35,310 bases of DNA from a bacterium (GCA_044869275.1 JBIOXB010000079.1:1-35310); one strand, 5' to 3'. Shown: positions 4,082-33,446, counted from the first letter of the stretch. Numbers and translations are program-made. Notes: generated by a model from the letters alone, not told the origin.

Positions 4082-5080
4082 ATGAATCGCATTGACCGGC
4101 TGGTCGCGACGGTGCTGTTGCTGCAAAGCAAGCGCCTCATTCGCGCACAAGATATTGCTGAACACTTCAGCATCAGCATTCGCACAGTGTATCGCGATCT
4201 CATCGCGCTGCAGGAAGCGGGTGTGCCGCTGGCGGCGGAGGCCCGGGAGGGTTACAGCCTGGTGGAAGGCTATCATCTGCCGCCGGTGATGTTCACGCAG
4301 GAGGAAGCGAGCGCCTTGTTCGTGGGCGGGGAGTTCGTACAGCGTCTCACGGATGCTTCGCTGAAAAAGCACATGGCTTCCGCGTTGCTGAAAATTCGCG
4401 CCGTATTGCCGGAAGAAAGGCAGGACTATGTCGAGCGCTTGCAGCAAGCGACCGCGGTGCTGGCGCGCCCGGCATGTCTTGAAGACGGTTTTCGGGACGA
4501 CGTGCTGGCGCTCATGCAGGAGGCGGTGGTGCGTCGCCAGGTCTTGAAAATGGAATATTCCGCGACCTCCAACGACGCCATCACCAAACGCTGCGTCGAG
4601 CCGCAGTGTTTGATTTACTACAGCGATCACTGGCATCTCGTAGCCTATTGCCAGCTACGCCAGGACTTCCGCGATTTTCGCACGGATCGCATCAAGCATA
4701 TCCTGCCCACCGGAGAGGTTTTCGCAGCGCATCGGGATTTTTCGCTGACGCAGTATTTGCACGACGCCAATAAAATTGAAAACCCGCAAGAAGCACGCAT
4801 CAAGTTCAGGCGCGCGGTGGCGCAACGCCTGCGCCGGCGATATTTCTTTACCGTGGCGGAAGAAGCCACCGGCGACGGGGGCATTATCCTCACCTTTCTC
4901 GTTCCCACCTTGCAAGTTTTGCTGGACTGGCTGTTGCCCTTTGGCACCGAGATTGAAATCATTCACCCTCCAGAATTGCGCCAACTGCTGCTCGACTATG
5001 CGCAGAAGATGGTGGCGCACTATGGCGGTGTTTGCCAACCCTCATTAAGCCTGGATCTCTCCAACCTGAATAACTCATGA
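4082..5080 (+). CDS. YafY-family WYL-domain transcriptional regulator (HTH-WYL-WCX)
   Basis: MNRIDRL...AQDIAEHFSISIRTVYRDLIALQEAGVP (HTH); YHLPPVMFTQEEA; RCVEP...WHLVAYCQLRQDFRDFRTDRI (WYL); LLPFGTEIEIIHPPELR (WCX). Confidence 0.95.
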   Translation: MNRIDRLVATVLLLQSKRLIRAQDIAEHFSISIRTVYRDLIALQEAGVPLAAEAREGYSLVEGYHLPPVMFTQEEASALFVGGEFVQRLTDASLKKHMASALLKIRAVLPEERQDYVERLQQATAVLARPACLEDGFRDDVLALMQEAVVRRQVLKMEYSATSNDAITKRCVEPQCLIYYSDHWHLVAYCQLRQDFRDFRTDRIKHILPTGEVFAAHRDFSLTQYLHDANKIENPQEARIKFRRAVAQRLRRRYFFTVAEEATGDGGIILTFLVPTLQVLLDWLLPFGTEIEIIHPPELRQLLLDYAQKMVAHYGGVCQPSLSLDLSNLNNS

Positions 5081-5216
5081 CCGCAGAGTCGCCGAGCACG
5101 CAGAGATTGAAAAAGTTTAGATTAGGCTGATCTCGTGAAGGAGCATGGAAGAGGCTGCTTCTATCCGATGCTATTCGACAACTTGATGTTCTCTGTGAAC
5201 TCGGGGGCTCGGCGGT
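5080..5216. repeat. Imperfect 27-bp inverted repeat (REP/MITE-like hairpin element)
   Basis: ACCGCAGAGTCGCCGAGCACGCAGAGA (5080-5106) vs TCTCTGTGAACTCGGGGGCTCGGCGGT (5190-5216): 21/27 complementary, and two of the mismatches are G-U compatible. Confidence 0.7.
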
Positions 5217-5261
5217 TTGATTTCATGCATTAACCAGCCGGAGTTCAAAATTTCGGCTTCG

Positions 5262-5307
5262 ACAAGCTCAGCCTGCAACAAGCCCAGCCTGCACAAGCTC
5301 GGCCTGC
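5262..5307 (+). repeat. Three near-tandem 15-bp repeats ACAAGCYCRGCCTGC
   Basis: ACAAGCTCAGCCTGC (5262-5276), ACAAGCCCAGCCTGC (5278-5292), ACAAGCTCGGCCTGC (5293-5307). Confidence 0.85.
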
Positions 5308-5343
5308 GCTGAAACCAAGCGTTTTCAAACAGCCTGTATGCTC

Positions 5344-5377
5344 CTGACATAGGGTTGTCACAAGCCGCCTTTATATT
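5344..5377 (+). promoter_or_regulatory. Putative WYL-regulator operator/promoter of dinB: TGACA-N6-TGTCAC-N10-TATATT
   Basis: Palindrome TGACA(5345-5349)-TAGGGT-TGTCA(5356-5360); -10-like TATATT at 5372-5377; identical 18-mer recurs at 8351; AAGGAG RBS at 5419-5424. Confidence 0.8.
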
Positions 5378-5429
5378 CCTCCCGTTTCAAATTTGACCCA
5401 CCAACTCACTCGCCCAGAAAGGAGCAGGC

Positions 5430-5927
5430 ATGCTACGTACCACCAAAGATTTTGTGAAGATGTGGGATGATGAGACCCGCATGACATATAAAACTTTTCG
5501 TAATCTCACCGACGCTACGCTCACGCAGAAAATCACACCCGAGGGGCGGAGCCTGGGGAAACTGGCCTGGCATCTCGCGGTCTCGTTGAATATGATTACG
5601 GAGGCCGGTTTGCCGGTGGAGGCGCCGTCTGATGATAATGCGGTGCCCTCCAATGTCCAAGACATTCTCGCGGCTTATGAGAAAGGCGCGGCTTCGGTGC
5701 GCGAACGCGTCGGCGCGAATTGGAGCGATGCGGCGCTGCTGGAGATCGTGCCGATGTACGGCGAACAATGGGCCAGGGGCTATGTGTTGTGGGCGCTGAT
5801 ACTACACCAAACCCACCATCGCGCGCAGATGACGGTGTTGATGCGGCAGGCCGGCCTGAAAGTGCCCGGCGCCTACGGTCCGGCGCGCGAAGAGTGGGCG
5901 GAGATGAATCTGCCTGCACCGGAGTGA
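5430..5927 (+). CDS. DinB/YfiT-family putative metalloenzyme
   Basis: GRSLGKLAWHLA and LILHQTHHRAQMTVLMRQAGLKVPGAYGP: His triad and C-terminal motif of the DinB family. Confidence 0.93.
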   Translation: MLRTTKDFVKMWDDETRMTYKTFRNLTDATLTQKITPEGRSLGKLAWHLAVSLNMITEAGLPVEAPSDDNAVPSNVQDILAAYEKGAASVRERVGANWSDAALLEIVPMYGEQWARGYVLWALILHQTHHRAQMTVLMRQAGLKVPGAYGPAREEWAEMNLPAPE

Positions 5928-5982
5928 GGAAAACGTTCTCAAAGTTTTTCGGCAAAACATATAGCTATGGGTGTCGAGGGTC

Positions 5983-6326
5983 ATGAGATTTTTTGCCCTG
6001 CTCTCGCACGCGGTGGCGTTGCTGCTCGCGCTTGTGCTGTGTCCGGGGTGCAAAAAAGAAGCGCGGGACGATTCTGCCCAGCCCATCCGCGTGGAAGCCA
6101 TGAAGAAGCTGGCGTGGATCGAAGGCGCTGCCGGTAAACTCTGTGTCGATCGCGGCGGCGCCGGCGGCCTGCCAGTTGTGATCGTTCACTCTCTCGCCGA
6201 TCCTATCGGCGACGCGCGCGGATTTCCCAAAGTTGAGATTGACAAATGGCTCACGGCTTTGCGTTCCGCGGCTTATGCCGAGGCCATCGAAACGCATTGG
6301 CGCTCTATTTTGGTCAACGCCGAGAC
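5983..6326 (+). pseudogene. Remnant of a secreted/lipoprotein alpha/beta-hydrolase, internally deleted and 3'-truncated
   Basis: Signal-like MRFFALLSHAVALLLALVLCPGC; WIEGAAGKLCVDRGGAGGLPVVIVHSLA resembles an alpha/beta-hydrolase N-terminus, then jumps to DPIGDARG with no GxSxG elbow. The frame runs on out of frame over the SDR to a stop at 6414. Confidence 0.55.
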
Positions 6327-7141
6327 CCGAGACGATCGAGGAGACGGCCGAGATGGTGAACGCCGCAGGTGGTGTGGGCATCGCCGTCCGCGTGGATCAC
6401 ACGGTGGAAGATGAAGTCAAGGCACTGTTCGCTCGTATCGAACAAGAGCATCAAAGCCTCGAGGTGTTGGTGAATTGTATTGCCGGCGAAGATCCGATGC
6501 TCGGTGGCTGGGGGTCGTTTTGGAAGACGGACCTGAGTCGAGGCGTGGAGGCGCTCCGGCAGACGTTGCTCTCGCGCCTGATCACGGCGAAGTATGCCGC
6601 ACCGCTGATGATTCAGAAACGCCGCGGCCTTATCGTCGAGGTGACCGAGGGCGACATGCCGGGTGGCGCGGGCGGCAACGTGCTCAGCGGCTTCGCCAAG
6701 AGCGGGTCCAAGGATCTCGCGTTGAGAATGGCGGAGGAGCTGCGCAAACATCGCGTGACCGCAATTGCGATCACGCCGGGTTTTCTGCGGTCAGAGTCGA
6801 TGCTCGAACATTTTGGCGTCACCGAAGCGAACTGGCGGGAAGGCGGCAAGAGAGACAAGAATTTCCTCGCCTCCGAGTCGCCGCTATTCCTTGGCCGCGC
6901 AGTCGCAGCGCTGGCGCAAGACCAGAGGGTGTTCGCTCGCTCGGGCGAGCTTTTGAGTTCGTGGGAGCTGGGGCGGGAGTACGGATTCACCGATTACGAC
7001 GGCCGCCGGCCCGACTGGGGCAAGCATTTCAAGGAGGACGTCATTCCCTCGCGCAAATGGATGAAAGAAGCGTTCGCGCGGCAGGCCGCGTGGCTGGAGC
7101 GGATGGCGCGCCGTGCGCGGCAGTATCTCGGAGAGGAATAG
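6323..7141 (+). pseudogene. 5'-truncated SDR oxidoreductase (DHRS1-like)
   Basis: RPETIEETAEMVNAAGGVGIAVRVDH...AITPGFLRSESMLEHFGVTEANWR...SESPLFLGRAVAALA...YGFTDYDGRRPDW. No N-terminal Gly-rich nucleotide-binding motif and no credible start codon/RBS. Confidence 0.7.
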
Positions 7142-7222
7142 GGCCAGCGCCGCGGAGCCAAAGCCAGCAAATAGACAGATGCCCAAAATGACCTCGGCTC
7201 CGGCGCGAGTTCGATGGTTCAC
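7142..7222 (-). pseudogene. Orphan 5' end (signal peptide) of a lost minus-strand gene
   Basis: AAGGAG (7229-7234, minus strand) 6 nt before GTG 7222; MNHRTRAGAEVILGICLFAGFGSAALA is signal-peptide-like and then runs into the antisense of the SDR. Extended -10-like TGCTATATT at 7298-7306 (minus). Confidence 0.4.
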
Positions 7223-7495
7223 AGCTTACTCCTTTGTTTTTTGATAAGCCGCAATTATCTTACCGCAGCGATTCTTGCAGTGAAATAAACGCACAGGAAT
7301 ATAGCACGAATTCCACGAAAAGTCTTGCAAAAAAGCGAAAAGACCTCAACGCAACGGCGCGCTTGTTGCCAACGGAGTATGTCGCGGCAAATGCACAAAA
7401 CCTCTTTTGTTTCAGGTCGTCGCGGGCACAACCACAATCGCACCATGCTTTGCAAATGGAAAAGCTGAGACTGGGATAATTTCTAGAGAAGCGAA

Positions 7496-8347
7496 ATGTT
7501 AAAGGTGACAAAGCTTTATGAAGAGATTCGGGCCGGTTCGTCGTTGCCACTCATTGTTGGCGGCAGCGATGGCAATAAATATGTCGTGAAGCCGCGAGGC
7601 AGCGGAGAGGGGGTGCTGGCGAACGTGGCGGAATACCTATCACTCAAGCTGGGACAATTGGCGCAAATACCGGTGCTGGAGCCCGAGCTTCTGGCCATCG
7701 AGCCCGGTTTCGAGCATAAGGCACTGGATCCCGAAATCAGAGAGCTCTTGGCGAGAAGCGCCGGAATCAATTTTGGAACGAAATATGTGGAAGCTGCCGC
7801 GGTGTACCATGAGCACAGCGCAAACCATAAAATTGATTATGCCCTGAAGAATCACATCTTCCTATATGATTTGTTTCTCTTGAATATGGATCGAAATTCA
7901 GAGAACCCGAATATTATATTCAATCAGAAAGGATGGTGGTGCCTGGATTATGCTTCCGCTTTAGCCATTAGAAGCGCCATCGATGGTAAAAGCTATGAGC
8001 AACTCGCGATTCTTCGAGAAATGAAAAGACATCTTTTCTATCGCCATGATATCGACCCATATTATTTCATCGGGAAATTCAAAGAGATTGCAGACGCCAG
8101 TATCTCGGAGATGATTGGAGAACTGCCTGCGGAATGGGTTGCGCGTTTAAACGCTGCAAAGGAAAGCGAGGAAATGAAAAGAATCATCAGCAAGAGACTG
8201 ATTGATAAGAAGAATAATGTGCATGCGCTGATAAAAAGGCTGGATCTATTGAGAGTGCTGAAAATGGAAACAGAAGAAGAACGGAGATTGAAGGCCGTCA
8301 AAAACAGGAATGCCTTTGAGCAAAAATTTGGCAAACATGGAAAATGA
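7496..8347 (+). CDS. HipA-like (PI3/4-kinase-fold) kinase
   Basis: GSSLPLIVGGSDGNKYVVKPRGSGEG...AEYL...LLARSAGINFG...YDLFLLNMDRNSENPNII...WWCLDYASAL; visibly more AT-rich than its neighbours. Confidence 0.82.
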   Translation: MLKVTKLYEEIRAGSSLPLIVGGSDGNKYVVKPRGSGEGVLANVAEYLSLKLGQLAQIPVLEPELLAIEPGFEHKALDPEIRELLARSAGINFGTKYVEAAAVYHEHSANHKIDYALKNHIFLYDLFLLNMDRNSENPNIIFNQKGWWCLDYASALAIRSAIDGKSYEQLAILREMKRHLFYRHDIDPYYFIGKFKEIADASISEMIGELPAEWVARLNAAKESEEMKRIISKRLIDKKNNVHALIKRLDLLRVLKMETEEERRLKAVKNRNAFEQKFGKHGK

Positions 8348-8350
8348 CTG

Positions 8351-8384
8351 CTGACATAGGGTTGTCACTTCTCCTGCTTATAAT
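8351..8384 (+). promoter_or_regulatory. Second putative WYL-regulator operator/promoter: TGACA-N6-TGTCAC-N10-TATAAT
   Basis: CTGACATAGGGTTGTCAC (8351-8368) identical to 5344-5361; perfect TATAAT at 8379-8384 at the same 10-nt spacing. Confidence 0.8.
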
Positions 8385-8457
8385 CTCATGTGTAATCTCT
8401 GTATGCGATTAGTCACTCAGAATAAAAGACGTAAGCTTTGTTACCACAGGATAGATG

Positions 8458-8654
8458 AGGACAGAAAAATGTCTGCCGTCTGCTCCTGCCGTCATCGTCA
8501 GCTTCCCTGATTTGACGCTAAAGGCCATTTTTCTGTCCTGGCCTTTGTTCAAGCTAACTGAACAGCTCGAGGATGCGACTTCTCTAAATTTTTCGTGGGG
8601 TCGCACGCAGGGCTTCGGTTTTTAGCTTAACTGCAAAGCAAGGTGGTCCTTTTT
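8458..8654 (+). ncRNA. Candidate structured RNA or long 5' leader (two long stem-loops), family unknown
   Basis: Perfect 14-bp stem 8458-8471/8526-8539; second nested hairpin CTTTG/CAAAG, AAGCTAA/TTAGCTT, TGCGAC/GTCGCA spanning 8543-8638; lies downstream of the 8351 promoter with no plus-strand ORF of 60 aa or more. Confidence 0.4.
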
Positions 8655-8724
8655 ATAGCTGGCGCAAGAGCTCAAAAATCAATTGAGGTCCGGTGAACGC
8701 TGAATCTTCAGACTGGCAATAAAA

Positions 8725-9348
8725 ATGCCCCGCACGGCTATCGGCTTCCGTGTAAAGTCTGGTTGGGCAACTGCCATCCTGCTTGCCGGTCCGGCACATG
8801 CTCCACGCGTGCTCGACCGCAGAGTGGTCGAGCTGGCCGATCCGGATCTGCCAGTGTCACGCCAACCTTTTCATGCCACGCTGAGATTGCATGAGGCGGC
8901 TGAGGAAAACGCGGCGGCGGGATTGGTGAAGATTGTACAACGCTACTCCAGGCGGGCGATGACCAGATTGATCAAGGATTACCGGAGCGGAGGCCACGAA
9001 TTATGCGGCGCCGGTCTCGTGGTGGGCAGCGACCTCGATCCGGCAAAGATCAAGCAAATCGGTAACTTGCACATTCGGATACATGCACAGGAAGGACGCT
9101 TGTTCAGAGAGGTGCTCGAAGCTGCTCTACGAGCACACGGATTGGGTTGCCTCGTGATCGTCGAGCGGCAGTTGTATAACGTGGCAACTGCGCGCTTGCG
9201 ACGGACCGAAACCGAGCTGAAGCTTTACATTGCCGAATTGGGTCGCGGCGTGGGTGGCCCATGGCGATCAGAAGAAAAGACGGCGGCGTTGGCGGCCTGG
9301 CTCGCGTTGCGAACAAAGCTTCCCGCAACCAAAGAGAAAGAGCTATGA
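8725..9348 (+). CDS. Hypothetical protein (possible RNase H/RuvC-like fold without canonical catalytic acids)
   Basis: 207-aa ORF (AIGFRVKSGWATAILLAG...HAQEGRLFREVL...GGPWRSEEKTAALAAWLAL); its stop overlaps the tag start (ATGA at 9345-9348). Confidence 0.75.
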   Translation: MPRTAIGFRVKSGWATAILLAGPAHAPRVLDRRVVELADPDLPVSRQPFHATLRLHEAAEENAAAGLVKIVQRYSRRAMTRLIKDYRSGGHELCGAGLVVGSDLDPAKIKQIGNLHIRIHAQEGRLFREVLEAALRAHGLGCLVIVERQLYNVATARLRRTETELKLYIAELGRGVGGPWRSEEKTAALAAWLALRTKLPATKEKEL

Positions 9349-9914
9349 CGACTTTGAACGATAAAGTTCGCTGCAGTTGGTGTCTGGGGCACGAATTATT
9401 GATTCCCTATCACGACGACGAATGGGGCGAGCCGGTGCACGAGGATCGCCGGCTTTTTGAAATGCTCATTCTCGAGGGCGCGCAAGCCGGTTTGAGCTGG
9501 CTGACAATTTTAAAAAAGCGCAAGAATTACCGCAGCGCTTTCGATAATTTTGAGGCCAGGAAGATCGCCAAGTATGATGGCCGCAAAGTGGCGCAACTGC
9601 TCAAAGACGAAGGCCTGGTGCGCAATCATTTGAAGATCGCGGCCGCGATTCAAAACGCGAAGGCATTTTTGGCCATACAGAAGGAATTTGGCAGCTTCGA
9701 CAAATACCTTTGGCAGTTTGTGGGCGGCAAACCGAAAATCAATCATTGGAAAGACTTGAAGGAGTTTCCGGTCAAGACCGCAGAGAGCGATGCGATGAGC
9801 AAAGATCTGCAGAAACGCGGCTTCAAATTCGTCGGCTCGACGATATGTTATGCTTTCATGCAAGCCGTAGGCATGGTAAATGATCATATGGTGGATTGTT
9901 GGAAAAGACGATGA
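9345..9914 (+). CDS. tag: DNA-3-methyladenine glycosylase I
   Basis: RCSWC...YHDDEWGEPVHEDRRLFEMLILEGAQAGLSWLTILKKR...GFKFVGSTICYAFMQAVGMVNDHMVDC. Confidence 0.97.
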   Translation: MTTLNDKVRCSWCLGHELLIPYHDDEWGEPVHEDRRLFEMLILEGAQAGLSWLTILKKRKNYRSAFDNFEARKIAKYDGRKVAQLLKDEGLVRNHLKIAAAIQNAKAFLAIQKEFGSFDKYLWQFVGGKPKINHWKDLKEFPVKTAESDAMSKDLQKRGFKFVGSTICYAFMQAVGMVNDHMVDCWKRR

Positions 9915-10333
9915 AATACTGGATCAACACGGTCTCGCGTGACCACACTCTGATTGGAAAAGAAGGCGGCTTTGTGCAGGCTGGCCATGGCAAGAAGCAG
10001 CCTTTGGAGAAGATGTCGGCGGGCGATATGGTGTTGTTTTACTCGCCGCGCACCGCGCTGGAAGAAGGCGAGCTGTTGCAGTGCTTTACCGCCATTGCCG
10101 AAGTTGCCGACGAGGCGATTTACACGGCGGCAATCCCCGAAAGCCTTCGCCCGCACCGCAGAAATGCCAGGTACTTTCCATGCGAAGAAATCGAAATCAA
10201 GCCATTGCTCCCGCAATTGGCGTTCATCAAGAACAAATCTTCGTGGGGCTTCCTTTTCCGGTTCGGACTGTTCGAGATTCCGCAGGCGGACTTTGAGTTT
10301 ATCGCGCAGCAGATGAAGGCCAAGCGCATTTAG
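9911..10333 (+). CDS. EVE-domain protein (PUA-like)
   Basis: MKYWINTVSRDH...GGFVQAGHGKKQPLEKMSAGDMVLFYSPR...FIKNKSSWGFLFRFGLFEIPQADF; ATGA overlap with tag. Confidence 0.9.
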   Translation: MKYWINTVSRDHTLIGKEGGFVQAGHGKKQPLEKMSAGDMVLFYSPRTALEEGELLQCFTAIAEVADEAIYTAAIPESLRPHRRNARYFPCEEIEIKPLLPQLAFIKNKSSWGFLFRFGLFEIPQADFEFIAQQMKAKRI

Positions 10334-10398
10334 AAGATTTGATTAAGCGATTTTTTCGTCTGGGAAGGGCCGCGTGGCAAAAAAGACCGAGGCAAGGA

Positions 10399-10602
10399 AT
10401 GAAACAAAAACTGAATAAAGATTGGCATGCGCAAAACCAGATGCCCGCGCACCCTACGGTGGCAGTGCGTCTCCACTGGCATTTGGAGCATGCCAAGCAT
10501 TGTGGCTGCCGGCCTATCCCTGCCAAGCTGATGGCACTGAAAGCAGGGTTGGATAAATTAGAGGTTGATAAGACGAGAAGAACCGGCGGGCTGAGTGAAT
10601 GA
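10399..10602 (+). CDS. Small His/Cys-containing hypothetical protein (67 aa)
   Basis: MKQKLNKDWHAQNQMPAHPTVAVRLHWHLEHAKHCGCRPIP; fills the gap between EVE and the epimerase on the same strand. Confidence 0.6.
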   Translation: MKQKLNKDWHAQNQMPAHPTVAVRLHWHLEHAKHCGCRPIPAKLMALKAGLDKLEVDKTRRTGGLSE

Positions 10603-20175: not shown

Positions 20176-20510
20176 ACTGGGAAAGCCAGCCTCAACCAAA
20201 CTCAATCCAGCTCGATTTTTTCTCAAACCTGAAACAAGTGATAAAAATCGGCCATCCCGATGGATGTTTTTCGTTCACGGGGCATGGTATGGTGTTTGCT
20301 GAACAACCGCACGGTCGCCTGGGTGCGGCCGGTTGGTGACGGCATTTTTTACACGCACAATTCTGCTCAAATCACCATGGTGTCGGGTAAACTTCATTTT
20401 GCTTTAGCAGCAAGAGTTGGGATTGGGTTTTCAGCGAAGTCTAAACGCGCGCCGCAAAAGGCGCCACTCCGCTCAAGGGAATGAACCGTTTTATCGGAAG
20501 GAGTTCGAAC

Positions 20511-21197
20511 ATGATGTTTCGTATGCTGCACACGCGTCCTTTCAAGGGAGCGGTGTTCATGCTTTGCTTTTCGCTGTTGCATCCGGCCCTTGCGCCGGTC
20601 ATCAGCCAAAGCCTGTCGCAGCCGAATCGATTGCGCGCCGGCGATGGTGTGCGCATCATGGTGTGGAAGGATTTGGACAATCAAATGCGGGTGGAGGATT
20701 TGGGCATCGCCGGAGATCAATTGATCGACGGCTCCGGCAATATCCTGGTGCCCGGTTTGGGCGAAGTCAGAGCCGCGGGCTCGACGCCGCAAGCGCTGGC
20801 AGAAGCGATACAACAGCAGCTGGAAATTAAGAAGATTCGTATCGTCTGCGCGCCGCTCATGCGCGTGACCGTGCTCGGCGCCGTGCAACGCCCCGGCTCC
20901 TATCTCGTGCAGCCCAAGGAATCATTGTGGGAATTGATCAGCAAGGCGGGTGGACCCGCGAACGAGGCCGACGTGCGCAAGATCAATGTGATTCGCAGCG
21001 GCCGCATGGTAAATGAAAACCTGTTGGAAGCCTTCGAAAAAGCCCATTCGCTCGAGCAAATGGGCGTGCAGTCCGGCGATCAAGTCGTGGTGCCGGGCCG
21101 TGGCGGTTTTAACTCGGATGACTTTTTTCGCTACGCGACCTTTGCGATGTCGGTGGGCATTTTCGTGCTGGCGCTTTCCGAGCGTAATCGTAACTGA
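20511..21197 (+). CDS. Polysaccharide export protein (Wza-like, Poly_export + SLBB)
   Basis: LRAGDGVRIMVW, IDGSGNILVPGLGEVRAAG, VTVLGAVQRPGSY, ISKAGG, VQSGDQVVVP; AAGGAG RBS 7 nt before ATG 20511. Confidence 0.85.
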   Translation: MMFRMLHTRPFKGAVFMLCFSLLHPALAPVISQSLSQPNRLRAGDGVRIMVWKDLDNQMRVEDLGIAGDQLIDGSGNILVPGLGEVRAAGSTPQALAEAIQQQLEIKKIRIVCAPLMRVTVLGAVQRPGSYLVQPKESLWELISKAGGPANEADVRKINVIRSGRMVNENLLEAFEKAHSLEQMGVQSGDQVVVPGRGGFNSDDFFRYATFAMSVGIFVLALSERNRN

Positions 21198-21250
21198 AAT
21201 GATTGCCAAGGATCGAGAGTAGGGCGTACAAGCAGCAGGGTTGAGGCATA

Positions 21251-23572
21251 ATGAACATGGAACTCTACGAGCTAGAAGACAATGGCGCAGCGGATGGCCA
21301 AAAGCTGGATCTGAGCCGTTATATCTCTGCTTTGAAACGCCGTTGGTGGCTGGCAGCTTTGATCGCCGTCGCGGTGACGGTACCCTGGGTGTGGTATGTC
21401 AAAATGGAATTGCCCATCTACGAAGCCACGGCTTCGATTCGGTTTCGCAACTTCGCCAGCAATTCCGAAAATTTGATGGAGGACATCTACGAGCAGATCA
21501 CCAGCCGGAGCTTTATCGAGCAGGTGGTTTCAGACTTGGGCTTGGTCGTCAGTCTTGAACAATACGGCGAACAGGAAAGATTCCTCACCCGGCGGCAAGT
21601 CTTTGCGAAATTCACCAGCACGCATTTTCCCGAAGCCGGCCGGTACGTTGTGCGCTTTCCGGGCGGCGGCAAGGTGGGGATTTTTGCGCTGGACGAAGAC
21701 GACAATGAAGTCAAGTTGCGCACCGTGGACCTCGCGCGCGCCACGACGGATACGATATCGATTCACGGCTTTTCTTTTCAACTGGCCGATCAAAAAAACC
21801 TGCCGGCGCAAGTGACTTTCAATATCGACCCGTTCCGTGTGGCGGTCAAGTCGCTGCAGGATCGCATCGGCGTGGATTTGAATCGTTCTTGGACGCTGAT
21901 GTTCGTCACCTTGCGCGACAACGATCCCTATCTCGTCACGCAATCGGTCAACAGCCTGGCGAATATTTTCATCCGCAAAAGCGAGAAAATCGGCAGTGAC
22001 AATCAGAGCAATCAGCTCGAGATGCTGCGCACGCAGATGGAACGCGCCAAGCGCGATTATGATGAAGTGGATGCGCGCTACACCGAGGCCTTCAAGCGCG
22101 TGGGCCTGGGCAGCCAAAGCGGGTTTCAAATGACATTCGAGCAGCGCCGCCTGGCCTCCGGGGAATTGCAATCACTGACGGAGCAGCAGGAAAACCTGGA
22201 AACCCTGCTCAACAAGATCGCCAGCGGCAGCGCTCAGACCCTCGAAGAAAAACGCCTGATCTATGGCGCCATCGCCTCCAGCAAGATTTTCGACAACAAT
22301 CCGACCATGGCAATTACCCGCCAGCGTTTCGAAAATATGGGAGCGGATTATGCCAAGCAAATCGAATTGAAGAACGAAACGCATCCCGATGTCGTGAAGC
22401 TGCAGGGACAAATCGATCAAGTCTGTGATCAGATTCAAGAAACCGCGCGCGCCAAGCTCACCACTCTGCAGCGCGACGTGCAGCGCAAGCAGAGCGAAGT
22501 CAGCCAGCTTGCCGCCAAAATAAGCGATTTGCCCGCGCAGGCGGGAACATTGGAGGAATTGGGCAAGGAACGCGACCGCACTTTTCAATACTACCAGCAG
22601 CTCCAAGCGCAAGTGCAGCAGTTGGAGGTAACCAGCGCCGCGGTGCAGGGCTCCATCGAGATTTTGGATCCGGCGATTGAGCCGCAATTCCCCATCAATC
22701 GCAACAAGGCCGCTAGGGCCGCCGTCGGCGCTGCCGTCGGGTTTCTGCTGGGCCTGGGCGTGGTGCTGGGGATCGAAGCCTTGGATCGCACCATCAAGAC
22801 GGTGGATGACGCCAAGAGCAGCATGAAGCTCAATGTGCTCGGCGCGATACCGCAAATCAGTTTTGGCGATTATTATGATTTGCAAGATTTGGAAAAGGCC
22901 AAAATGGTTGACCAGCAATTGGTCACGCACGATTTCGCGCCCACACCGATCGGAGAAGCCTATCGCTCGCTGCGCACGAATATCTTGTTTTCGAAATCCG
23001 CCGGCCGCGTTCAAACTTTCGTGATCACTTCCACCGCGCCCGGCGACGGCAAATCTTTCACCGCCGCGAATCTCAGCATTTGCATGGGGCAGCAAAAGAG
23101 CAATACCCTGCTGGTGGACACCGACATGCGGCGCGGCGTTTTGCATAACACCTTCGGCGTGGCGAAAGAACCGGGATTCAGCAACTATTTGATGGGCTCG
23201 ATTCTGTCGTCGGAAATCATTCACGAAACGCACATTCCCAATCTCTCCGTGATCAGCTGCGGCTCGCTGATCCCGAACCCCTCGGAAATGCTGGGTTCGG
23301 TGCAATTGCGCCGTTTTCTCGATGAAATGCGGCGCCGCTTCGATTTGATTATTTTCGACACCCCACCGCTCAACGCCGCCACCGATGCCGTGGTGCTGGG
23401 CACGCAAGTGGACGGCGTCGTGATCGTGCTGCGTGCCGGCAAAACACGCAAGGAAGTCGCACAACAGAAAATGGAATTGTTCAAGAACGTGCATGCGAAG
23501 ATCATCGGCGTGATCCTGAACGGCACGGCCGTCGATCTCGCACACGAAGGCTACAGCTATTATCATTATTGA
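21251..23572 (+). CDS. wzc: Polysaccharide co-polymerase / BY tyrosine kinase (Wzc)
   Basis: Two TM segments around a coiled-coil periplasmic region; EAYRSLRTNI, Walker A STAPGDGKS, LLVDTDMRR, IIFDTPP, C-terminal Tyr cluster GYSYYHY. Confidence 0.93.
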   Translation: MNMELYELEDNGAADGQKLDLSRYISALKRRWWLAALIAVAVTVPWVWYVKMELPIYEATASIRFRNFASNSENLMEDIYEQITSRSFIEQVVSDLGLVVSLEQYGEQERFLTRRQVFAKFTSTHFPEAGRYVVRFPGGGKVGIFALDEDDNEVKLRTVDLARATTDTISIHGFSFQLADQKNLPAQVTFNIDPFRVAVKSLQDRIGVDLNRSWTLMFVTLRDNDPYLVTQSVNSLANIFIRKSEKIGSDNQSNQLEMLRTQMERAKRDYDEVDARYTEAFKRVGLGSQSGFQMTFEQRRLASGELQSLTEQQENLETLLNKIASGSAQTLEEKRLIYGAIASSKIFDNNPTMAITRQRFENMGADYAKQIELKNETHPDVVKLQGQIDQVCDQIQETARAKLTTLQRDVQRKQSEVSQLAAKISDLPAQAGTLEELGKERDRTFQYYQQLQAQVQQLEVTSAAVQGSIEILDPAIEPQFPINRNKAARAAVGAAVGFLLGLGVVLGIEALDRTIKTVDDAKSSMKLNVLGAIPQISFGDYYDLQDLEKAKMVDQQLVTHDFAPTPIGEAYRSLRTNILFSKSAGRVQTFVITSTAPGDGKSFTAANLSICMGQQKSNTLLVDTDMRRGVLHNTFGVAKEPGFSNYLMGSILSSEIIHETHIPNLSVISCGSLIPNPSEMLGSVQLRRFLDEMRRRFDLIIFDTPPLNAATDAVVLGTQVDGVVIVLRAGKTRKEVAQQKMELFKNVHAKIIGVILNGTAVDLAHEGYSYYHY

Positions 23573-23606
23573 GACCACAGTCAAGGCAAGGCAGTGGACT
23601 ATTGAT

Positions 23607-23649
23607 ACTTTACACGTTACACGTGTAAAGTGTAACGTGCAACGTGTAA
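23607..23649. repeat. Heptamer-period palindrome (TTACACG units)
   Basis: ACTTTACACG (23607-23616)/CGTGTAAAGT (23622-23631) perfect stem; also TTACACGTTACACG vs CGTGCAACGTGTAA (23636-23649). Confidence 0.75.
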
Positions 23650-23724
23650 TGCGCGAAGTTTTTTTCCGAAGTCTAAACTTTTGTCATTTATTGAATGATG
23701 GGCGAACAAGGGTAGGAGCGACGC

Positions 23725-24684
23725 ATGAAAACTCTGATTACGGGCGGTGCGGGCTTTATCGGCTCGCATCTCAGCGAGCGTCTGTTGGCGCAAGGGCATG
23801 AAGTTGTGAGTTTGGACAGCTTCAACGACTATTACGACCCGCGCCACAAGCGCCTGAACGTGGTGCCCGTGCTTGGAAAGCCGGGCTACACGCTCGTGGA
23901 AATGGATATTCTAGATTGCGACGGTTTACAGAAGCTATTTCGCGAGCAGCGGTTCGATGTGATCGTGCATTTGGCCGCGCGCGCCGGCGTCCGGCCTTCC
24001 ATCGCCCAGCCTTTGCTTTACGAAAAAGTGAACATGGAAGGCACGCTGAATCTGCTGGAATTGTCGCGCCACGCGGGCATTAAGAAATTCATTTTCGCCT
24101 CTTCTTCTTCGGTTTACGGCGAAAACCCCAAAGTGCCTTTTTCCGAAGACGATCGCGTCGATTTTCCCATCAGCCCATACGCCGCCACCAAGAAAGCGGG
24201 CGAGGAGATGTGCTACACCTATCATCATTTGTATGGCCTGAAAATAACCTGCTTGCGTTTCTTCACCGTGTATGGTCCGCGGCAGCGGCCCGACATGGCG
24301 ATCAACAAATTCACCAAACTCATCGCGGCCGGTGAAAAAGTGCCGATGTATGGCGAAGGCACCAGCCGGCGCGATTACACCTATGTCTCGGACATCATTG
24401 ACGGCATTGAAAAATCAATCGACGCCTGCTCCGCTTATCACGTCTACAATTTGGGCGAGTCACGGACGATTGAATTGCGCGCGCTCATTCAACTCATACA
24501 AGAGAGCTTGGGCAAGAAAGCGCTCGTCGAGCAGTTGCCCGCGCAGCCCGGGGACGTTCCCATCACTTACGCCGACATTTCCAAAGCACGCCGGGAAATC
24601 GGCTACCATCCGCAAGTTGACCTCACCGAAGGTGTTCGGCGCTTTGTGGAATGGTTCCAAGAGCATCGTGCCGAAAGATCTTGA
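23725..24684 (+). CDS. NDP-sugar epimerase, UDP-glucuronate 4-epimerase-like
   Basis: ITGGAGFIG, HLAARAGVRPS, ASSSSVYG, PISPYAATKK, LRFFTVYGPRQRPDMA, QPGDV. Confidence 0.9.
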   Translation: MKTLITGGAGFIGSHLSERLLAQGHEVVSLDSFNDYYDPRHKRLNVVPVLGKPGYTLVEMDILDCDGLQKLFREQRFDVIVHLAARAGVRPSIAQPLLYEKVNMEGTLNLLELSRHAGIKKFIFASSSSVYGENPKVPFSEDDRVDFPISPYAATKKAGEEMCYTYHHLYGLKITCLRFFTVYGPRQRPDMAINKFTKLIAAGEKVPMYGEGTSRRDYTYVSDIIDGIEKSIDACSAYHVYNLGESRTIELRALIQLIQESLGKKALVEQLPAQPGDVPITYADISKARREIGYHPQVDLTEGVRRFVEWFQEHRAERS

Positions 24685-24784
24685 CTCTCGCTCTCTCACA
24701 TCCGCTGCTGCGCGCGCGGCGGGCGCCTCCACGACGGAGCGCGCTGGCGTGGCTTCCGTGGAGATCGGGAAGGTGAGGTAAGAC

Positions 24785-26242
24785 ATGGTTCGCGAGAAGC
24801 AAGCATTTTTGCGCAATCTGGTCATTCTCTCGGATGCCCTGCTGATCGGGCTCGGTTTTGCCGCCTCCTACTTCATCAGCTTTTACTTGCGTGAGGCCTA
24901 CGGCCTCGGGGAGATGGCGTACGCCGTGTCGCCGGATTGGGAGGGCTTGTCGTATTTCACGCAGAAGAACATTGCGCTCGTCGCCTTTTACTTGATCGGT
25001 TGGCTTTCGACGCTGGTGTTCGTCGGCGCCTACAAGGACCTGCGCACGCACACATTTTTTAAGAGCGTTTTGCAGATCTTTGGCGCCGGCGTGGTGGCCT
25101 TGTTAATGGTCAGCACGCCGATTTTTTTGTTTAAAATGGTGCTCACCAGCCGCCTTTTTATTGCGACGTTGTGGCTGGCGACGGTCGCCCTGCTGCTGGT
25201 GGCGCGCCTCGGCATGAATCATTTGCTTGATTCTATTCATGCCCGTGGTTATAATCATGTCAACTTGCTCATCGTGGGCACGGGCAAGCGCGCGCGGGAT
25301 TTCATTCGCACGGTCAAATCACACGCGAATTGGGGACTGACCATTTCCGGGTTGATCGACGACGATCACGGCATGTTCGGCAAGGAAATAGAAGGCTATC
25401 GCGTGCTCGGCCGCATTCAAGATATTCCGTTCATCATTCATCGCAAGATCATCGACCGTGTCATCTTCGTGGTGCCGCGGCTTTGGCTCAATCGCATCGA
25501 TGAAGCCATTCTCGCGTGTGAGCGTGAAGGAATTCCCACCAGCATTTCTATGGACTTGTATAATCTCCGCATCGCACGCGTGCGGCAGACGGATTTCAGC
25601 GGCTTTCCGTTGCTGGAATTCGAGACCTTCAATGCGCGCACGTGGCAATTGTTTGCCAAACGCGTGATCGACGTCGTGCTGGCGCTGGGACTGCTGCTGG
25701 CGTTGTCGCCGGTGTTTTTTTTCATTTTCCTGGCCATCAAGCTTTCCTCCGGCGCGTCGGTGTTCTTCAAACAGAGGCGCTGCGGCTTGAACGGCAGAAC
25801 TTTCACGCTCTATAAATTCCGCTCCATGGTCGAGAACGCGGAAATGCGGCGGCGCGAGCTGGAAAAAATGAACGAGATGGACGGCCCGGTATTCAAAATT
25901 AGGCGCGATCCGCGCATCACCACTATTGGCCGCGTGCTGCGCAAAACCTCCCTCGACGAATTGCCGCAATTGTTCAACGTGCTCATGGGCGACATGAGCT
26001 TGGTCGGCCCGCGCCCGCCGCTCGCGGTCGAAGTCGAATTGTACAAGCATTGGCAGCGGCGCCGGCTTTCGCTCAAACCGGGTTTGACCTGTATCTGGCA
26101 AGTGAGCGGCCGCAACAAAATCGGCTTCGAGAAATGGATGGAAATGGATATGGAATACATCGACAACTGGTCGCTCTGGCTGGATTTCAAAATCATGGTG
26201 AAGACGGTTTTCGTGGTATTGTTCGGCTACGGAGCGAGTTGA
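24785..26242 (+). CDS. Priming undecaprenyl-phosphate glycosyl-1-phosphate transferase (WcaJ/CpsE-like)
   Basis: N-terminal TMs; KRVIDV, FTLYKFRSM, DPRITTIGRVLRKTSLDELPQLFNVLMGDMSLVGPRP, KPGLTCIWQVSGR, YIDNWSLWLD. Confidence 0.93.
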   Translation: MVREKQAFLRNLVILSDALLIGLGFAASYFISFYLREAYGLGEMAYAVSPDWEGLSYFTQKNIALVAFYLIGWLSTLVFVGAYKDLRTHTFFKSVLQIFGAGVVALLMVSTPIFLFKMVLTSRLFIATLWLATVALLLVARLGMNHLLDSIHARGYNHVNLLIVGTGKRARDFIRTVKSHANWGLTISGLIDDDHGMFGKEIEGYRVLGRIQDIPFIIHRKIIDRVIFVVPRLWLNRIDEAILACEREGIPTSISMDLYNLRIARVRQTDFSGFPLLEFETFNARTWQLFAKRVIDVVLALGLLLALSPVFFFIFLAIKLSSGASVFFKQRRCGLNGRTFTLYKFRSMVENAEMRRRELEKMNEMDGPVFKIRRDPRITTIGRVLRKTSLDELPQLFNVLMGDMSLVGPRPPLAVEVELYKHWQRRRLSLKPGLTCIWQVSGRNKIGFEKWMEMDMEYIDNWSLWLDFKIMVKTVFVVLFGYGAS

Positions 26243-26244
26243 TT

Positions 26245-26329
26245 GTAGAGAGTAGATTGTGGCTGGTGGATGGTGGTCGCGCATGCGAGTAGCGATTTAC
26301 GATCCACGATCTACTATCCGCGATCCACG
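26245..26329. repeat. Heptamer-period inverted repeat (5+5 units)
   Basis: GTAGAGA GTAGATT GTGGCTG GTGGATG GTGGTCG (26245-26279) facing ATTTACG ATCCACG ATCTACT ATCCGCG ATCCACG (26295-26329). Confidence 0.7.
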
Positions 26330-26467
26330 TTGCTTCACCTTGAACACTGAGTATCAAAACAAACCAACGGCTTTGGGGCTAGCATCCCAGCGCGAATAAA
26401 ACGGGCGTGACGGGCGAAAAGCAGGCGCTCCAACACGGCTTTACGAAATTTCTCTGGAGGAATATCT

Positions 26468-27781
26468 ATGCGTATTTGTATGGTTGGTACCGGCTATGTC
26501 GGACTGGTGACCGGCACGTGCTTCGCGGAATTCGGCAATGACGTCGTCTGCGTGGATATCGACAGCGGCAAAATCGAGACCTTGAATCGCGGCGAGATTC
26601 CGATCTACGAGCCGGGCTTGGATACCATGGTGGCGAAGAATGTGAAATCCGGCCGCTTGAAATTCACCACCGACATGAAATATGCGATCGATAATTCTCT
26701 GGTGATTTTCGTCGCGGTGGGCACGCCGCAAGCGCAGGATGGCTCCGCGGACATGCGCTACGTTGAGAACGTGGCGAAAGATATTGCCAAATACATGAAC
26801 GGCTACAAGGTCGTGGTGAACAAGAGTACGGTGCCGGTGGGCGCAGGCAAATGGATCAAAGAAGTGATTCAAAAGCATCAAAGGACCTCCATCCATTTCT
26901 CCGTCGTTTCCAATCCGGAATTTCTGCGCGAAGGCTCGGCCATCGAAGACTTCATGCGCCCCAATCGCGTGGTCATCGGCGCGGAGGACAGTGAGGCCAT
27001 GGCGATCATGAGAGATTTGTACTCGCCCTTGTATTTGATCGAAACCCCGATTGTGATGACCGATCTGGCCAGCGCCGAATTGACGAAATACGCGGCCAAT
27101 GCTTTTCTTGCCGTCAAAATCAGCTTCATCAACGACATCGCCAATGTGTGCGAGCGCGTGGGCGCGGATGTGCACGATGTGGCACGCGGCATGGGCCTGG
27201 ATAACCGCATCGGCACGAAGTTTTTGCACCCCGGCCCGGGCTACGGCGGTTCGTGCTTCCCGAAGGATACGCTGGCACTGCTTTCCATTGGCGCCAAACA
27301 CGAATATCCACTCCGCATCGTCGAGGCCGCGGTAAAGGTGAACGAGATGCAGCGACAAGTCATGGTGCAAAAAATCAAGAACGCGATCGGCAGCATTGCA
27401 GGCAAGACCATCGCAGTTCTCGGGCTCGCCTTCAAGCCGGAAACCGACGACATACGCGAAGCGCCGGCCATCGACATCATTCAGGCGCTGCTCAAAGAAG
27501 GCGCGCGCGTCCGTGCCTACGATCCGGTCGCCATGGCGCCCGCACGTCAGCTATTGCCGGAGGTGGAATTTGGCGAAGGGAATAAAGTCGGGGAAGAATA
27601 CAAGATCATGGAAGCCGCAGACGCGCTGGTGTTCGTCACCGAGTGGAACCAATTCCGCAGCCTGGACCTCGACCGTGTGCGCGGTTTGTTGAAGTCGCCC
27701 ATCGTGATCGACCTGCGCAACATTTACGATCCGCTCAGGATGAAGGAAAAAGGTTTTCAATATTTCTGCGTTGGCCGGTGA
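26468..27781 (+). CDS. ugd: UDP-glucose 6-dehydrogenase
   Basis: GTGYVGL, IYEPGL, KSTVPVG, SNPEFLREG, AELTKYAAN, GYGGSCFPKD, GLAFKPETDDIRE. Confidence 0.95.
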   Translation: MRICMVGTGYVGLVTGTCFAEFGNDVVCVDIDSGKIETLNRGEIPIYEPGLDTMVAKNVKSGRLKFTTDMKYAIDNSLVIFVAVGTPQAQDGSADMRYVENVAKDIAKYMNGYKVVVNKSTVPVGAGKWIKEVIQKHQRTSIHFSVVSNPEFLREGSAIEDFMRPNRVVIGAEDSEAMAIMRDLYSPLYLIETPIVMTDLASAELTKYAANAFLAVKISFINDIANVCERVGADVHDVARGMGLDNRIGTKFLHPGPGYGGSCFPKDTLALLSIGAKHEYPLRIVEAAVKVNEMQRQVMVQKIKNAIGSIAGKTIAVLGLAFKPETDDIREAPAIDIIQALLKEGARVRAYDPVAMAPARQLLPEVEFGEGNKVGEEYKIMEAADALVFVTEWNQFRSLDLDRVRGLLKSPIVIDLRNIYDPLRMKEKGFQYFCVGR

Positions 27782-27877
27782 GAATGTAGCAGATTTTCAC
27801 CGCCAAGGGGCGAAGGACGTAATCGGCAAGCGCCTCCAGCCTCTTGCTGTTACAATGTTGCGGTTTTGAAACATTCC

Positions 27878-27914
27878 GCCCGATTCCGGATTCTTGGAGT
27901 CGGGCTTTTTATTT
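27878..27914 (+). terminator. Intrinsic terminator after ugd
   Basis: GCCCGATTCC (27878-27887)/GGAGTCGGGC (27896-27905), a 10-bp stem with one G-U, followed by TTTTTATTT. Confidence 0.75.
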
Positions 27915-28129
27915 GCATGTGTCACACAAATACATCGTTTCATCGTGGCACATAACGGGACGGCCGGCCCGCTGTATTCAAGAGATTTTGACCGAGCAAA
28001 CTTCATAAAAAATAGCCAGAAATCAGACTTTGCTGGTATATAAAAAACTGGCATCACTGTTGCAAAAGGCGGAGGGGACGATAACCAATTTGAAAGAGCA
28101 ATTTGACAGTTATGCAAAAAGATGCTCGT

Positions 28130-31422: not shown

Positions 31423-31434
31423 AGGGCAGCCGAG

Positions 31435-33438: not shown

Positions 33439-33446
33439 GCGGCGGG

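What the first reader, a model, noticed from the sequence alone, without database searches (positions are those of the whole stretch)
4082..10602. Candidate WYL-activated damage regulon with PafBC-like promoter geometry
Seen: an identical 18-mer, CTGACATAGGGTTGTCAC, at 5344-5361 and 8351-8368. It contains the palindrome TGACA-N6-TGTCA. In both copies TGTCAC is followed after exactly 10 nt (different sequence) by a -10 hexamer, TATATT or TATAAT. The first copy lies between a YafY-type WYL regulator and dinB; the second precedes unknown-tag-EVE. Established: the mycobacterial WYL activator PafBC uses TGTCGG-N10-TA-N3-T promoters (-26 element, sigma adaptation); the WYL factors DriD and SiwR are ssDNA-responsive activators, and SiwR controls DinB/YfiT-like genes. 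Inference: the 4082 protein binds the palindrome as a homodimer and activates a LexA-independent regulon that includes alkylation repair (tag) and a putative modified-base reader (EVE), apparently outside Actinobacteria.
Basis: partly seen in the sequence, partly recalled or inferred. Interest (0 to 1): 0.82.

Follow-up and report, generated by a model that had tools for sequence, protein, structure and literature searches.

The report
YafY-type WYL operator for genotoxin defence
A short DNA palindrome sits at one fixed distance before the promoter core at three places in this genome and beside related regulator genes in several bacterial phyla; it is likely the docking site of a DNA-damage-sensing regulator predicted to switch on a small set of detoxification, export and repair genes.

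Summary
Observation confirmed. The 18-mer lies at 5344-5361 and 8351-8368, each 10 nt before a -10 hexamer; a third copy lies before a MacAB-like exporter on another contig. The core TGACA-N6-TGTCA-N11-TAnnnT occurs 72 times in 40 of 167 genomes of the phylum (control 5). The palindrome lies in 48 of 80 loci of the regulator's homologues. In Bacteroidota the 11-nt gap is kept, but in front of that phylum's own -7 element. The box is therefore very likely the operator of the YafY-type WYL protein at 4082. Corrections: the geometry is not special to PafBC, since DriD and SiwR share it, and DriD works without sigma adaptation. 'dinB' is a DinB/YfiT metalloprotein, not Pol IV. recA and uvrA carry no box here. 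Targets across genomes are mostly DinB/YfiT, VOC, GyrI-like, NapW-like reductase and exporter genes, with some tag, AlkA-like, AlkZ and uvrA: likely a small defence regulon against DNA-damaging compounds. This window's cluster is partly decayed. The scan has noted other WYL boxes at this spacing on other DNA. I did not find this operator in the open-access papers searched. Binding, activation and ligand are untested.

The parts
4082..5080 (+). YafY-type wHTH-3HB-WYL-WCX regulator (332 aa); the only WYL gene found in the genome
   Evidence: Pfam HTH_11, WYL, WCX; one WYL match in G000; AlphaFold model pLDDT 87, best folds DriD and PafBC, E about 1e-17; recognition helix RTVYRD with R34, Y37, R38 invariant in 48 homologues
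5062..5237 (.). Dispersed hairpin-forming repeat (about 175 nt), unrelated to the box
   Evidence: 18 BLAST hits in the genome, self included
5242..5340 (.). REP-like dispersed repeat that ends just before box 1 (the REP label is recalled, not tested)
   Evidence: 178 BLAST hits; the other copies lack the box
5344..5361 (+). Operator copy 1, palindrome TGACA-N6-TGTCA, over the position where a -35 element would lie
   Evidence: matrix score 47.7 bits
5372..5377 (+). -10 hexamer TATATT, 11 nt after TGTCA
   Evidence: same spacing at 10 of 10 strict palindromes found near orthologues without asking for a -10
5430..5927 (+). DinB/YfiT-superfamily protein (PF05163), not DNA polymerase IV; candidate bacillithiol transferase
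   Evidence: PDB 3DI5 'DinB-like protein' E 6.5e-36; bshC present in the genome; commonest first target in relatives
5983..6327 (+). Remnant of an alpha/beta-hydrolase gene, internally deleted and cut off at about 6325
   Evidence: tblastn with the intact genes of G001 and G016 matches two separate parts of the protein
6323..7141 (+). Remnant of a NapW-like short-chain reductase lacking its first ~48 residues and the box that relatives have before this gene
   Evidence: E 1.2e-50 to PDB 7BSX/7BTM = NapW; 56% to the intact G001 gene, which has a box
7496..8347 (+). HipA-like kinase (PF20613); recurs in the same cluster elsewhere
   Evidence: homologue between dinB and the reductase in L099 and near the WYL gene in G014
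8351..8368 (+). Operator copy 2
   Evidence: 47.8 bits
8379..8384 (+). -10 hexamer TATAAT, 11 nt after TGTCA
8450..8628 (.). Dispersed hairpin-forming repeat between promoter 2 and its first gene; holds a terminator-like stem at 8596-8617
   Evidence: terminator count in the region is at chance level, 9 against 8.2; in G016 the homologous gene starts 40 nt after the -10
8725..9348 (+). Conserved hypothetical protein with a RuvC-like fold but Arg where RuvC has its first catalytic Asp; likely not a standard resolvase
   Evidence: no Pfam match; 998 homologues; model pLDDT 94.5; RuvC best, Z 13.8, rmsd 3.4, 148 aligned; the RuvC residue position is recalled
9345..9914 (+). tag, 3-methyladenine DNA glycosylase I; ATGA overlap with the gene before
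   Evidence: TIGR00624 above cut-off; overlap read
9911..10333 (+). EVE-domain protein; ATGA overlap with tag
   Evidence: PF01878, PRK02268

Best explanation
The 18-mer is very likely the operator of the YafY-type WYL protein at 4082-5080, which is predicted to bind it as a homodimer and, probably after sensing single-stranded DNA, to activate a small regulon that would defend against DNA-damaging compounds. SHOWN: the box, its fixed spacing to the promoter core, its co-occurrence with this regulator subfamily in several phyla, and the gene families behind it. INFERRED: each subunit reads one GTC triplet with R34 and R38, as DriD R37/R41 and PafB R46/R50 do; Y37, in the place of PafB E49 and DriD E40, would explain TGAC instead of CGAC. 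The promoters have a -10 but no usable -35, because the box covers that position. ssDNA bound in the WYL pocket would free the HTH domains, and the dimer would recruit RNA polymerase at a fixed register, as DriD does. The induced genes would conjugate, reduce, bind or export genotoxic small molecules (DinB/YfiT, NapW-like reductase, VOC, GyrI-like, MacAB-like exporter) and remove alkylated bases (Tag, AlkA-like, AlkZ, at times UvrA). In this genome the regulon has three promoters and is partly decayed.
For: Phylum scan: 72 sites in 40 of 167 genomes, 5 for the reversed pattern. With a free gap of 7-15, 51 of 52 TGACATA-core sites have an 11-nt match. Box in 20 of 21 genomes with an orthologue. 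Strict palindrome in 48 of 80 homologue loci; 0-1 loci for each of seven control patterns. Bacteroidota: the gap stays 11 (49 of 53 matches; 2 control matches) but leads to TNnnTTTG, that phylum's -7 element (PMC7366714), so the spacing follows each phylum's own sigma element. Box beside the YafY gene in 5 of 6 annotated loci read (Bacillus, Cytobacillus, Paenibacillus, Deinococcus, Spirosoma). Motif-first test: 41 of 120 metagenome loci hold a WYL-profile hit, against 3 of 65 viral loci whose match count is near chance; all 19 readable recognition helices read RT[VI]YRD. DriD ssDNA residues Y168, R178, R204, R207 align with invariant Y159, R170, R197, R200. First genes after the box in 94 metagenome ORFs: VOC 19, GyrI-like 10, DinB 8, AlkA-like 4, UvrA-like 2, AlkZ 1, RecA 1. 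Box-linked reductase is a NapW homologue, E 2.8e-82; NapW inactivates DNA-alkylating tetrahydroisoquinolines (PMC8648761). Box before the MacAB-like exporter in 10 relatives.
Against: No binding, transcript or induction data exist. Six genomes carry a convincing box without an orthologue at E 1e-30 (G001, G002, G009, G013, G018, G023); in G001, G018 and G023 the site is near a contig end, but G002 (100% complete) shows only a distant WYL protein. One orthologue-bearing genome (G006) has no site. In two of three Bacillota loci the best -10 lies at 12 nt, not 11. DriD R176 aligns with T168 and Y192 with H185, so two of six ssDNA contacts differ. In this genome a repeat with a terminator-like stem separates copy 2 from its genes, and an FMO-like fragment on the other strand separates copy 3 from the exporter, so both promoters may be impaired. 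Related genomes are not independent samples. No substrate of any target was tested; many targets have no family.
Confidence: 0.72

Rival explanations
1. Activation by PafBC-type sigma adaptation: the downstream HTH reads a -26 element and the other HTH displaces sigma region 4.
For: TGTCAC-N10-TAnnnT has the register of tGTCgg(N10)tA(N3)T (PMC8635444). PafBC is the best sequence match among solved structures. The half-site gap is 8 bp, not DriD's 7, so the upstream subunit sits differently. SiwR authors left sigma adaptation open.
Against: Both half-sites are conserved, so both HTHs probably read DNA; in PafBC only PafB does. DriD has the same register and makes almost no sigma contact. No second WYL subunit gene was found.
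Confidence: 0.12
2. Same operator and regulator, but the signal is not ssDNA (a cyclic dinucleotide as for MbpR, or a small molecule), and the regulon is a general xenobiotic or electrophile response.
For: MbpR of L. plantarum binds c-di-GMP through its WYL domain, and its ChIP motif YAATGGTGCCA resembles the right half of some boxes here (PMC11880434). Many targets (VOC, ABM, DJ-1, GFA, SnoaL, RibD_C) are not specific to DNA damage.
Against: Four DriD ssDNA-contact residues are invariant. Direct DNA-repair genes recur behind the box (tag in 6 of 26 genomes, uvrA in G025 and G056, AlkA-like, AlkZ, RecA). SiwR, with the same gene context, binds ssDNA.
Confidence: 0.1
3. The protein is a repressor (BrxR/CapW type) that blocks these promoters until an inducer removes it.
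For: The box overlaps the -35 position, and WYL repressors exist (PMC13004042 introduction).
Against: A repressor needs no fixed register; here it is fixed across phyla and co-varies with the sigma element. No -35 is present (ATAGGG at the 17-bp position; cTGACA lies 22 bp from the -10). The fold is closer to DriD/PafBC (TM 0.54-0.58) than to CapW/BrxR (about 0.3). The box does not precede the regulator's own gene here.
Confidence: 0.04
4. The 18-mer is the end of a dispersed mobile repeat, unlinked to the WYL gene.
For: Copy 1 abuts a REP-like repeat, and the region is rich in dispersed repeats.
Against: Only 3 copies in 6.7 Mb; the repeat's other copies lack the box; flanks differ between copies; the box follows the regulator across phyla.
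Confidence: 0.02

Closest known systems
SiwR (MSMEG_1359) of Mycobacterium smegmatis, PMC10693628
   Same: Stand-alone wHTH-WYL-WCX regulator beside DinB/YfiT genes (VOC genes in some relatives); palindromic operator between -35 and -10; downstream GTC 12 nt from the -10 (read from the EMSA oligos); small regulon apart from SOS.
   Different: SiwR's palindrome is GGAC-N7-GTCC; here TGAC-N8-GTCA. SiwR has one known operon and is described mainly in Actinobacteria; this box recurs at several promoters per genome (1-7 matches among relatives) in KSB1-type, Bacteroidota, Bacillota and Deinococcus genomes. SiwR's protein sequence was not compared here.
DriD of Caulobacter crescentus, PMC9186387, PMC10853764, PMC13004042
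   Same: Same fold (best structural match); two-arginine GTC readout; fixed site over the -35 position at the same register to the -10; four of six ssDNA contacts identical.
   Different: CGAC-N7-GTCG against TGAC-N8-GTCA; Glu40 against Tyr37; about 19% identity; DriD drives didA, recA, recJ, bapE, dnaG, whereas these targets are mostly detoxification and export genes.
PafBC of mycobacteria, PMC8635444
   Same: [quoted passage not shown]
   Different: Heterodimer on a non-palindromic site, sigma adaptation, about 150 genes. Here one gene, a full palindrome, three promoters.
DdaA of Moraxellaceae, PMC12392091
   Same: Homodimeric WYL activator of a dispersed regulon defined by a palindrome.
   Different: CGWCA-N5-TGWCG; controls core repair (recA, uvrA, ssb) and anti-phage genes and replaces SOS.
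YafY-EVE-VOC/SRPBCC neighbourhoods, PMC7641849 section 8
   Same: Already predicts ligand-activated resistance operons joining YafY, EVE and VOC genes.
   Different: Gene-context prediction only; the section read gives no operator or promoter geometry.

Membership tests
Class A homodimeric WYL activators (DriD/SiwR/DdaA type) | wHTH + linker helices + WYL + WCX in one chain | tested here: met
   Pfam; model and fold search
Class A homodimeric WYL activators (DriD/SiwR/DdaA type) | Two recognition-helix arginines that read GTC | tested here: met
   R34 and R38 invariant in 48 homologues; align with PafB R46/R50
Class A homodimeric WYL activators (DriD/SiwR/DdaA type) | ssDNA-binding residues in the WYL pocket | tested here: met
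   4 of 6 DriD residues identical and invariant (Y159, R170, R197, R200); H185 for Y192, T168 for R176. Sequence only.
Class A homodimeric WYL activators (DriD/SiwR/DdaA type) | Palindromic operator at a fixed distance from the -10, no consensus -35 | tested here: met
   same GTC-N12 register as DriD and SiwR
Class A homodimeric WYL activators (DriD/SiwR/DdaA type) | Homodimer, ssDNA-dependent activation shown in vitro or in vivo | not testable with these tools
   no experiment; no complex prediction was run
DriD orthologue | Operator CGAC-N7-GTCG read with Glu40 | tested here: not met
   TGAC-N8-GTCA in 48 of 80 loci, CGACA-N5-TGTCG in 1 of 80; Tyr at that helix position
PafBC (sigma adaptation) | PafB/PafC heterodimer from two adjacent genes | tested here: not met
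   one WYL gene found in G000; 94% complete assembly
PafBC (sigma adaptation) | Non-palindromic -26 element | tested here: not met
   both half-sites conserved
PafBC (sigma adaptation) | GTC 12 nt before the -10 hexamer | tested here: met
   shared with DriD and SiwR, so not diagnostic
SiwR orthologue | Operator GGAC-N7-GTCC | tested here: not met
   SiwR oligos
SiwR orthologue | Adjacent DinB-superfamily target | tested here: met
WYL repressors (BrxR/CapW) | Lies before and controls an anti-phage operon | tested here: not met
   targets are not defence operons (one Cas3 among 94); the HipA-like gene has a PADLOC candidate-system hit, PDC-M66A
NapW-like SDR (box-linked reductase) | Close homology and catalytic Asp165 | tested here: inconclusive
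   Intact G001 and G016 genes keep Asp; the window's remnant has Glu there and lacks the N-terminus; activity untested
RuvC Holliday-junction resolvases (8725-9348 protein) | RNase H-like RuvC fold | tested here: met
   Z 13.8, rmsd 3.4, 148 aligned
RuvC Holliday-junction resolvases (8725-9348 protein) | Acidic catalytic residues, first on strand 1 | tested here: not met
   strand 1 reads IGFRVKSG with Arg nearly invariant and no Asp; RuvC residue positions recalled, not superposed

The most novel reading that the evidence does not exclude
TGACA-N6-TGTCA-N11 is the operator code of the widespread YafY subfamily and marks, across at least five phyla, a dedicated ssDNA-triggered defence regulon against DNA-attacking natural products. 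The box would then flag undiscovered resistance and repair proteins, such as the RuvC-fold protein coupled to tag and the MacAB-like exporter. In Bacteroidota most of these promoters lack the A of the -7 element (T in 36 of 40 and 33 of 49 sites), so the activator may help to melt the promoter and not only recruit polymerase.
Probability: 0.35. Interest if true: 0.75.

Novelty: new variant of a known kind. Interest (0 to 1): 0.5.

Why it matters
YafY-type WYL regulators are common and mostly uncharacterised. A sharp operator-plus-promoter code lets their regulons be read from sequence in any genome and tested in culturable hosts. It ties scattered small genes (DinB/YfiT, VOC, GyrI-like, NapW-like) to one likely signal, and suggests what they defend against. 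It also shows that the 'PafBC' promoter register is general to WYL activators, with half-site gap and one helix residue setting specificity. The mechanism class itself is known, which caps the interest.

Tried and rejected
Mobile-repeat origin of the 18-mer: rejected. Larger hidden regulon: a matrix from 51 sites of relatives finds only 3 sites of 12 bits or more in G000; shifting the spacer in that scan was uninformative because the box alone passes the threshold. Box at recA or uvrA of this genome: none. cTGACA as an ordinary -35: rejected, 22 bp from the -10; the sigma-70 scan did not list these promoters. Viral enrichment: 65 matches against roughly 90 expected per 1e11 positions (collection size assumed), so no enrichment. 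RNA data: no RNA holder listed. Atlas search of the 8725 protein: only unnamed clusters. ORF 10339-10602: no family, not pursued. The RuvC-fold gene occurs in 3 of 61 genomes; 2 have a box upstream, G041 does not. Literature searches for this operator found none; the library holds open-access papers only, so subscription papers and regulon databases were not seen. Figures with promoter alignments (DriD Fig. 4C, SiwR Fig. 6a) are not held as text; spacing was read from oligos in the methods and supplement, and the -10 assignments there are mine.


Full report
1. Observation. The 18-mer is identical at 5344-5361 and 8351-8368, and each copy is followed after 10 unlike bases by TATATT or TATAAT. 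About 0.01 such pairs are expected by chance in the window. The 6.67-Mb genome holds six strict TGACA-N6-TGTCA palindromes; three have TAnnnT 11 nt after TGTCA: the two in the window and G000:C208:52112. A weight matrix from 51 sites of relatives scores these three at 47.8, 47.7 and 38.9 bits and finds nothing else at 12 bits or more. Dispersed repeats lie close by (5062-5237, 5242-5340, 8450-8628), but the box is not part of them.

2. Anatomy. 4082-5080 encodes an HTH_11-WYL-WCX protein, the only WYL match in the genome. Its closest homologues carry record titles such as 'candidate division KSB1', so the organism is probably of that phylum. Box 1 leads to a DinB/YfiT gene (PF05163; not Pol IV). 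Next come the remains of an alpha/beta-hydrolase and a short-chain reductase, run together at about 6325; the reductase has lost its first ~48 codons. In G001, G014 and G016 the reductase is intact and has a box of its own. A HipA-like kinase follows, then box 2, a 180-nt repeat, and three genes joined by ATGA overlaps: a hypothetical gene, tag and EVE. In G016 the homologue of the hypothetical gene starts 40 nt after an equivalent box and -10, which supports the link that the repeat now interrupts. The hypothetical protein folds like RuvC (Z 13.8) but has Arg where RuvC's first catalytic Asp is recalled to lie. Box 3 lies about 600 nt before an adaptor-ATPase-two-permease exporter of MacAB type, with an FMO-like fragment in between; in G001 the box is 125 nt before the same adaptor gene.

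3. The box tracks the regulator. Among 61 genomes, the full pattern gives 61 sites in 28 genomes against 4 for the reversed control; at phylum level 72 sites in 40 of 167 against 5. Of 21 genomes with an orthologue (E below 1e-90), 20 have the box; of 40 without, 8 do, two of them chance-like. Five of the other six were searched again: G023 has a cut-off WYL gene at the contig end beside its box, the rest only distant WYL proteins; G018 was not searched again. In 80 homologue loci from all genomes, the strict palindrome occurs in 48; seven control patterns occur in 0 or 1 each. It also lies beside the YafY gene in 5 of 6 annotated loci read. In reverse, 41 of 120 metagenome loci picked by the motif hold a WYL-profile hit (15 of 33 among loci of 4.5 kb or more), against 3 of 65 viral loci. 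These genomes are related and not independent.

4. Geometry. Ten of 10 palindromes found near 20 KSB1-type orthologues, without asking for a -10, have TAnnnT at 11 nt. With the gap free from 7 to 15, 51 of 52 TGACATA-core sites match at 11. In Bacteroidota the box is followed at 11 nt by TNnnTTTG (49 of 53 matches in 30 of 81 genomes of one family), the phylum's -7 element being TAnnTTTG (PMC7366714, one passage). The second base is mostly T instead of A (36 of 40 next to the regulator; 33 of 49 genome-wide), whereas 420 box-free upstream regions show TA 46 times and TT 32 times. Against strict invariance: two of three Bacillota loci have their best -10 at 12 nt. The register GTC-N12-(-10) is that of PafBC (PMC8635444, passages). 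It is also what I read in the DriD promoter oligos (PMC13004042, methods) and the SiwR oligos (supplement rows). It is therefore a class feature. What differs is the half-site gap (8 here; 7 in DriD, SiwR and DdaA) and the outer base, matched by Tyr37 in place of PafB E49 and DriD E40.

5. Targets. Among 56 first-ORF calls behind boxes in this group (37 scanned), 17 are DinB/YfiT (own gene included), 10 genomes have the box before the MacAB-like exporter, 3 before the reductase, 2 before canonical uvrA. tag lies on the same strand within about 4 kb after a box in 6 of 26 genomes that have tag; in G001 two opposite-strand genes intervene. In Bacteroidota the targets are GyrI-like, DinB, ABM and DJ-1 proteins (24 scanned of 52). 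Of 96 first ORFs in metagenome loci, 94 were scanned (two near-duplicates left out): VOC 17, GyrI-like 8, DinB 4, and one each of AlkA-type glycosylase, UvrA, AlkZ and RecA by Pfam; BLAST among them adds 2 VOC, 2 GyrI-like, 4 DinB, 3 AlkA-like and 1 UvrA-like. The reductase is a NapW homologue (E 2.8e-82); NapW inactivates DNA-alkylating tetrahydroisoquinolines and has homologues in non-producers (PMC8648761, passages). GyrI-like hydrolases, drug-binding proteins and AlkZ are described as defences against DNA-attacking antibiotics (PMC9854587, passages). The DinB superfamily includes bacillithiol transferases (PMC10693628 discussion), and bshC is present here. recA and uvrA of this genome have no box. 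LexA was not found here but in 54 of 61 genomes.

6. Mechanism. Shown: box, spacing, linkage, target families, conserved residues. Inferred from DriD and SiwR: homodimer binding through R34/R38, ssDNA sensing through Y159, R170, R197 and R200, and polymerase recruitment at a promoter without a -35. My odds: operator of this protein 0.9; activator 0.85 given that; ssDNA or genotoxic trigger 0.75; defence against genotoxic small molecules as the main purpose 0.6. Rivals are sigma adaptation, another ligand (MbpR binds c-di-GMP; PMC11880434, passages), repression and a mobile repeat.

7. Comparison. It works like SiwR and DriD and meets every class feature testable here, but it is not an orthologue of DriD, SiwR or PafBC by operator. 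YafY-EVE-VOC neighbourhoods were already proposed as ligand-activated resistance modules (PMC7641849, section 8). Six searches found no paper with this operator; only open-access papers were searched. Earlier notes of this scan report other WYL palindromes, of 17 or 18 bp, 10 nt before a -10 or -7 element on other DNA; I did not check them, and they lower the surprise of the geometry. A search of those notes by this protein's sequence found nothing. Papers seen: PMC10693628 (parts 1-2 of 9, sections 12 and 15, passages, supplement rows), PMC13004042 (parts 1-4 of 9, methods passages), PMC7641849 (section 8, passages); passages only of PMC8635444, PMC10853764, PMC9186387, PMC12392091, PMC8648761, PMC9854587, PMC11880434, PMC5133734, PMC7366714.

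8. Verdict. A real regulatory element; a new variant of the known homodimeric WYL activators, with a wide reach and a regulon biased to genotoxin defence. Interest 0.5.

Noticed in passing
G000:C208:52112-57688 (L436): Third box before an adaptor-ATPase-two-permease exporter of MacAB type; the same operon has the box in 10 relatives, in two of them with moaC first.
   Followed up: yes
window 8725-9348: Widespread family without a Pfam model (998 homologues), RuvC-like fold, invariant K11, Q47-P48-H50, H116, H120, E123, R128, W180; candidate DNA-structure or damage-binding protein.
   Followed up: partly
L187, L188, L189 (G002, G009, G001): A second, distant WYL subfamily (helix RTIYRD) lies beside its own variant box, TGACSG-N4/5-TGTCA-like, again 11 nt before TATATT or TATCTT.
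   Followed up: no
Bacteroidota loci L129-L178, L191-L212: Box-dependent promoters mostly read TTnnTTTG, lacking the A of the phylum's -7 consensus.
   Followed up: partly
whole genome G000: No LexA found although 54 of 61 genomes searched have it, the same-genus genome included; probably an assembly gap, possibly a loss.
   Followed up: partly
window 5062-5237, 5242-5340, 8450-8628: Three families of dispersed hairpin-forming repeats (18, 178 and 13 BLAST hits in the genome).
   Followed up: partly
window 7496-8347: HipA-like kinase with a PADLOC candidate-system hit (PDC-M66A, E 5.9e-25) recurs inside the WYL cluster in other genomes; no partner gene sought.
   Followed up: partly
L283:3001-3953: A split YafY-like gene follows the aadE-sat4-aphA3 cassette on an Enterococcus faecium plasmid; similar matches on about 400 Staphylococcus and Enterococcus plasmids; no box in the one locus read.
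   Followed up: no
L429, L384: Metagenome loci with the box directly before recA and before a cas3 gene, so the regulon may at times take in core repair or defence genes.
   Followed up: no
window 20481-34445: Exopolysaccharide cluster (export protein, Wzz/tyrosine kinase, sugar transferases, UDP-sugar dehydrogenase, asparagine synthase-like, radical SAM), unrelated to the finding.
   Followed up: no
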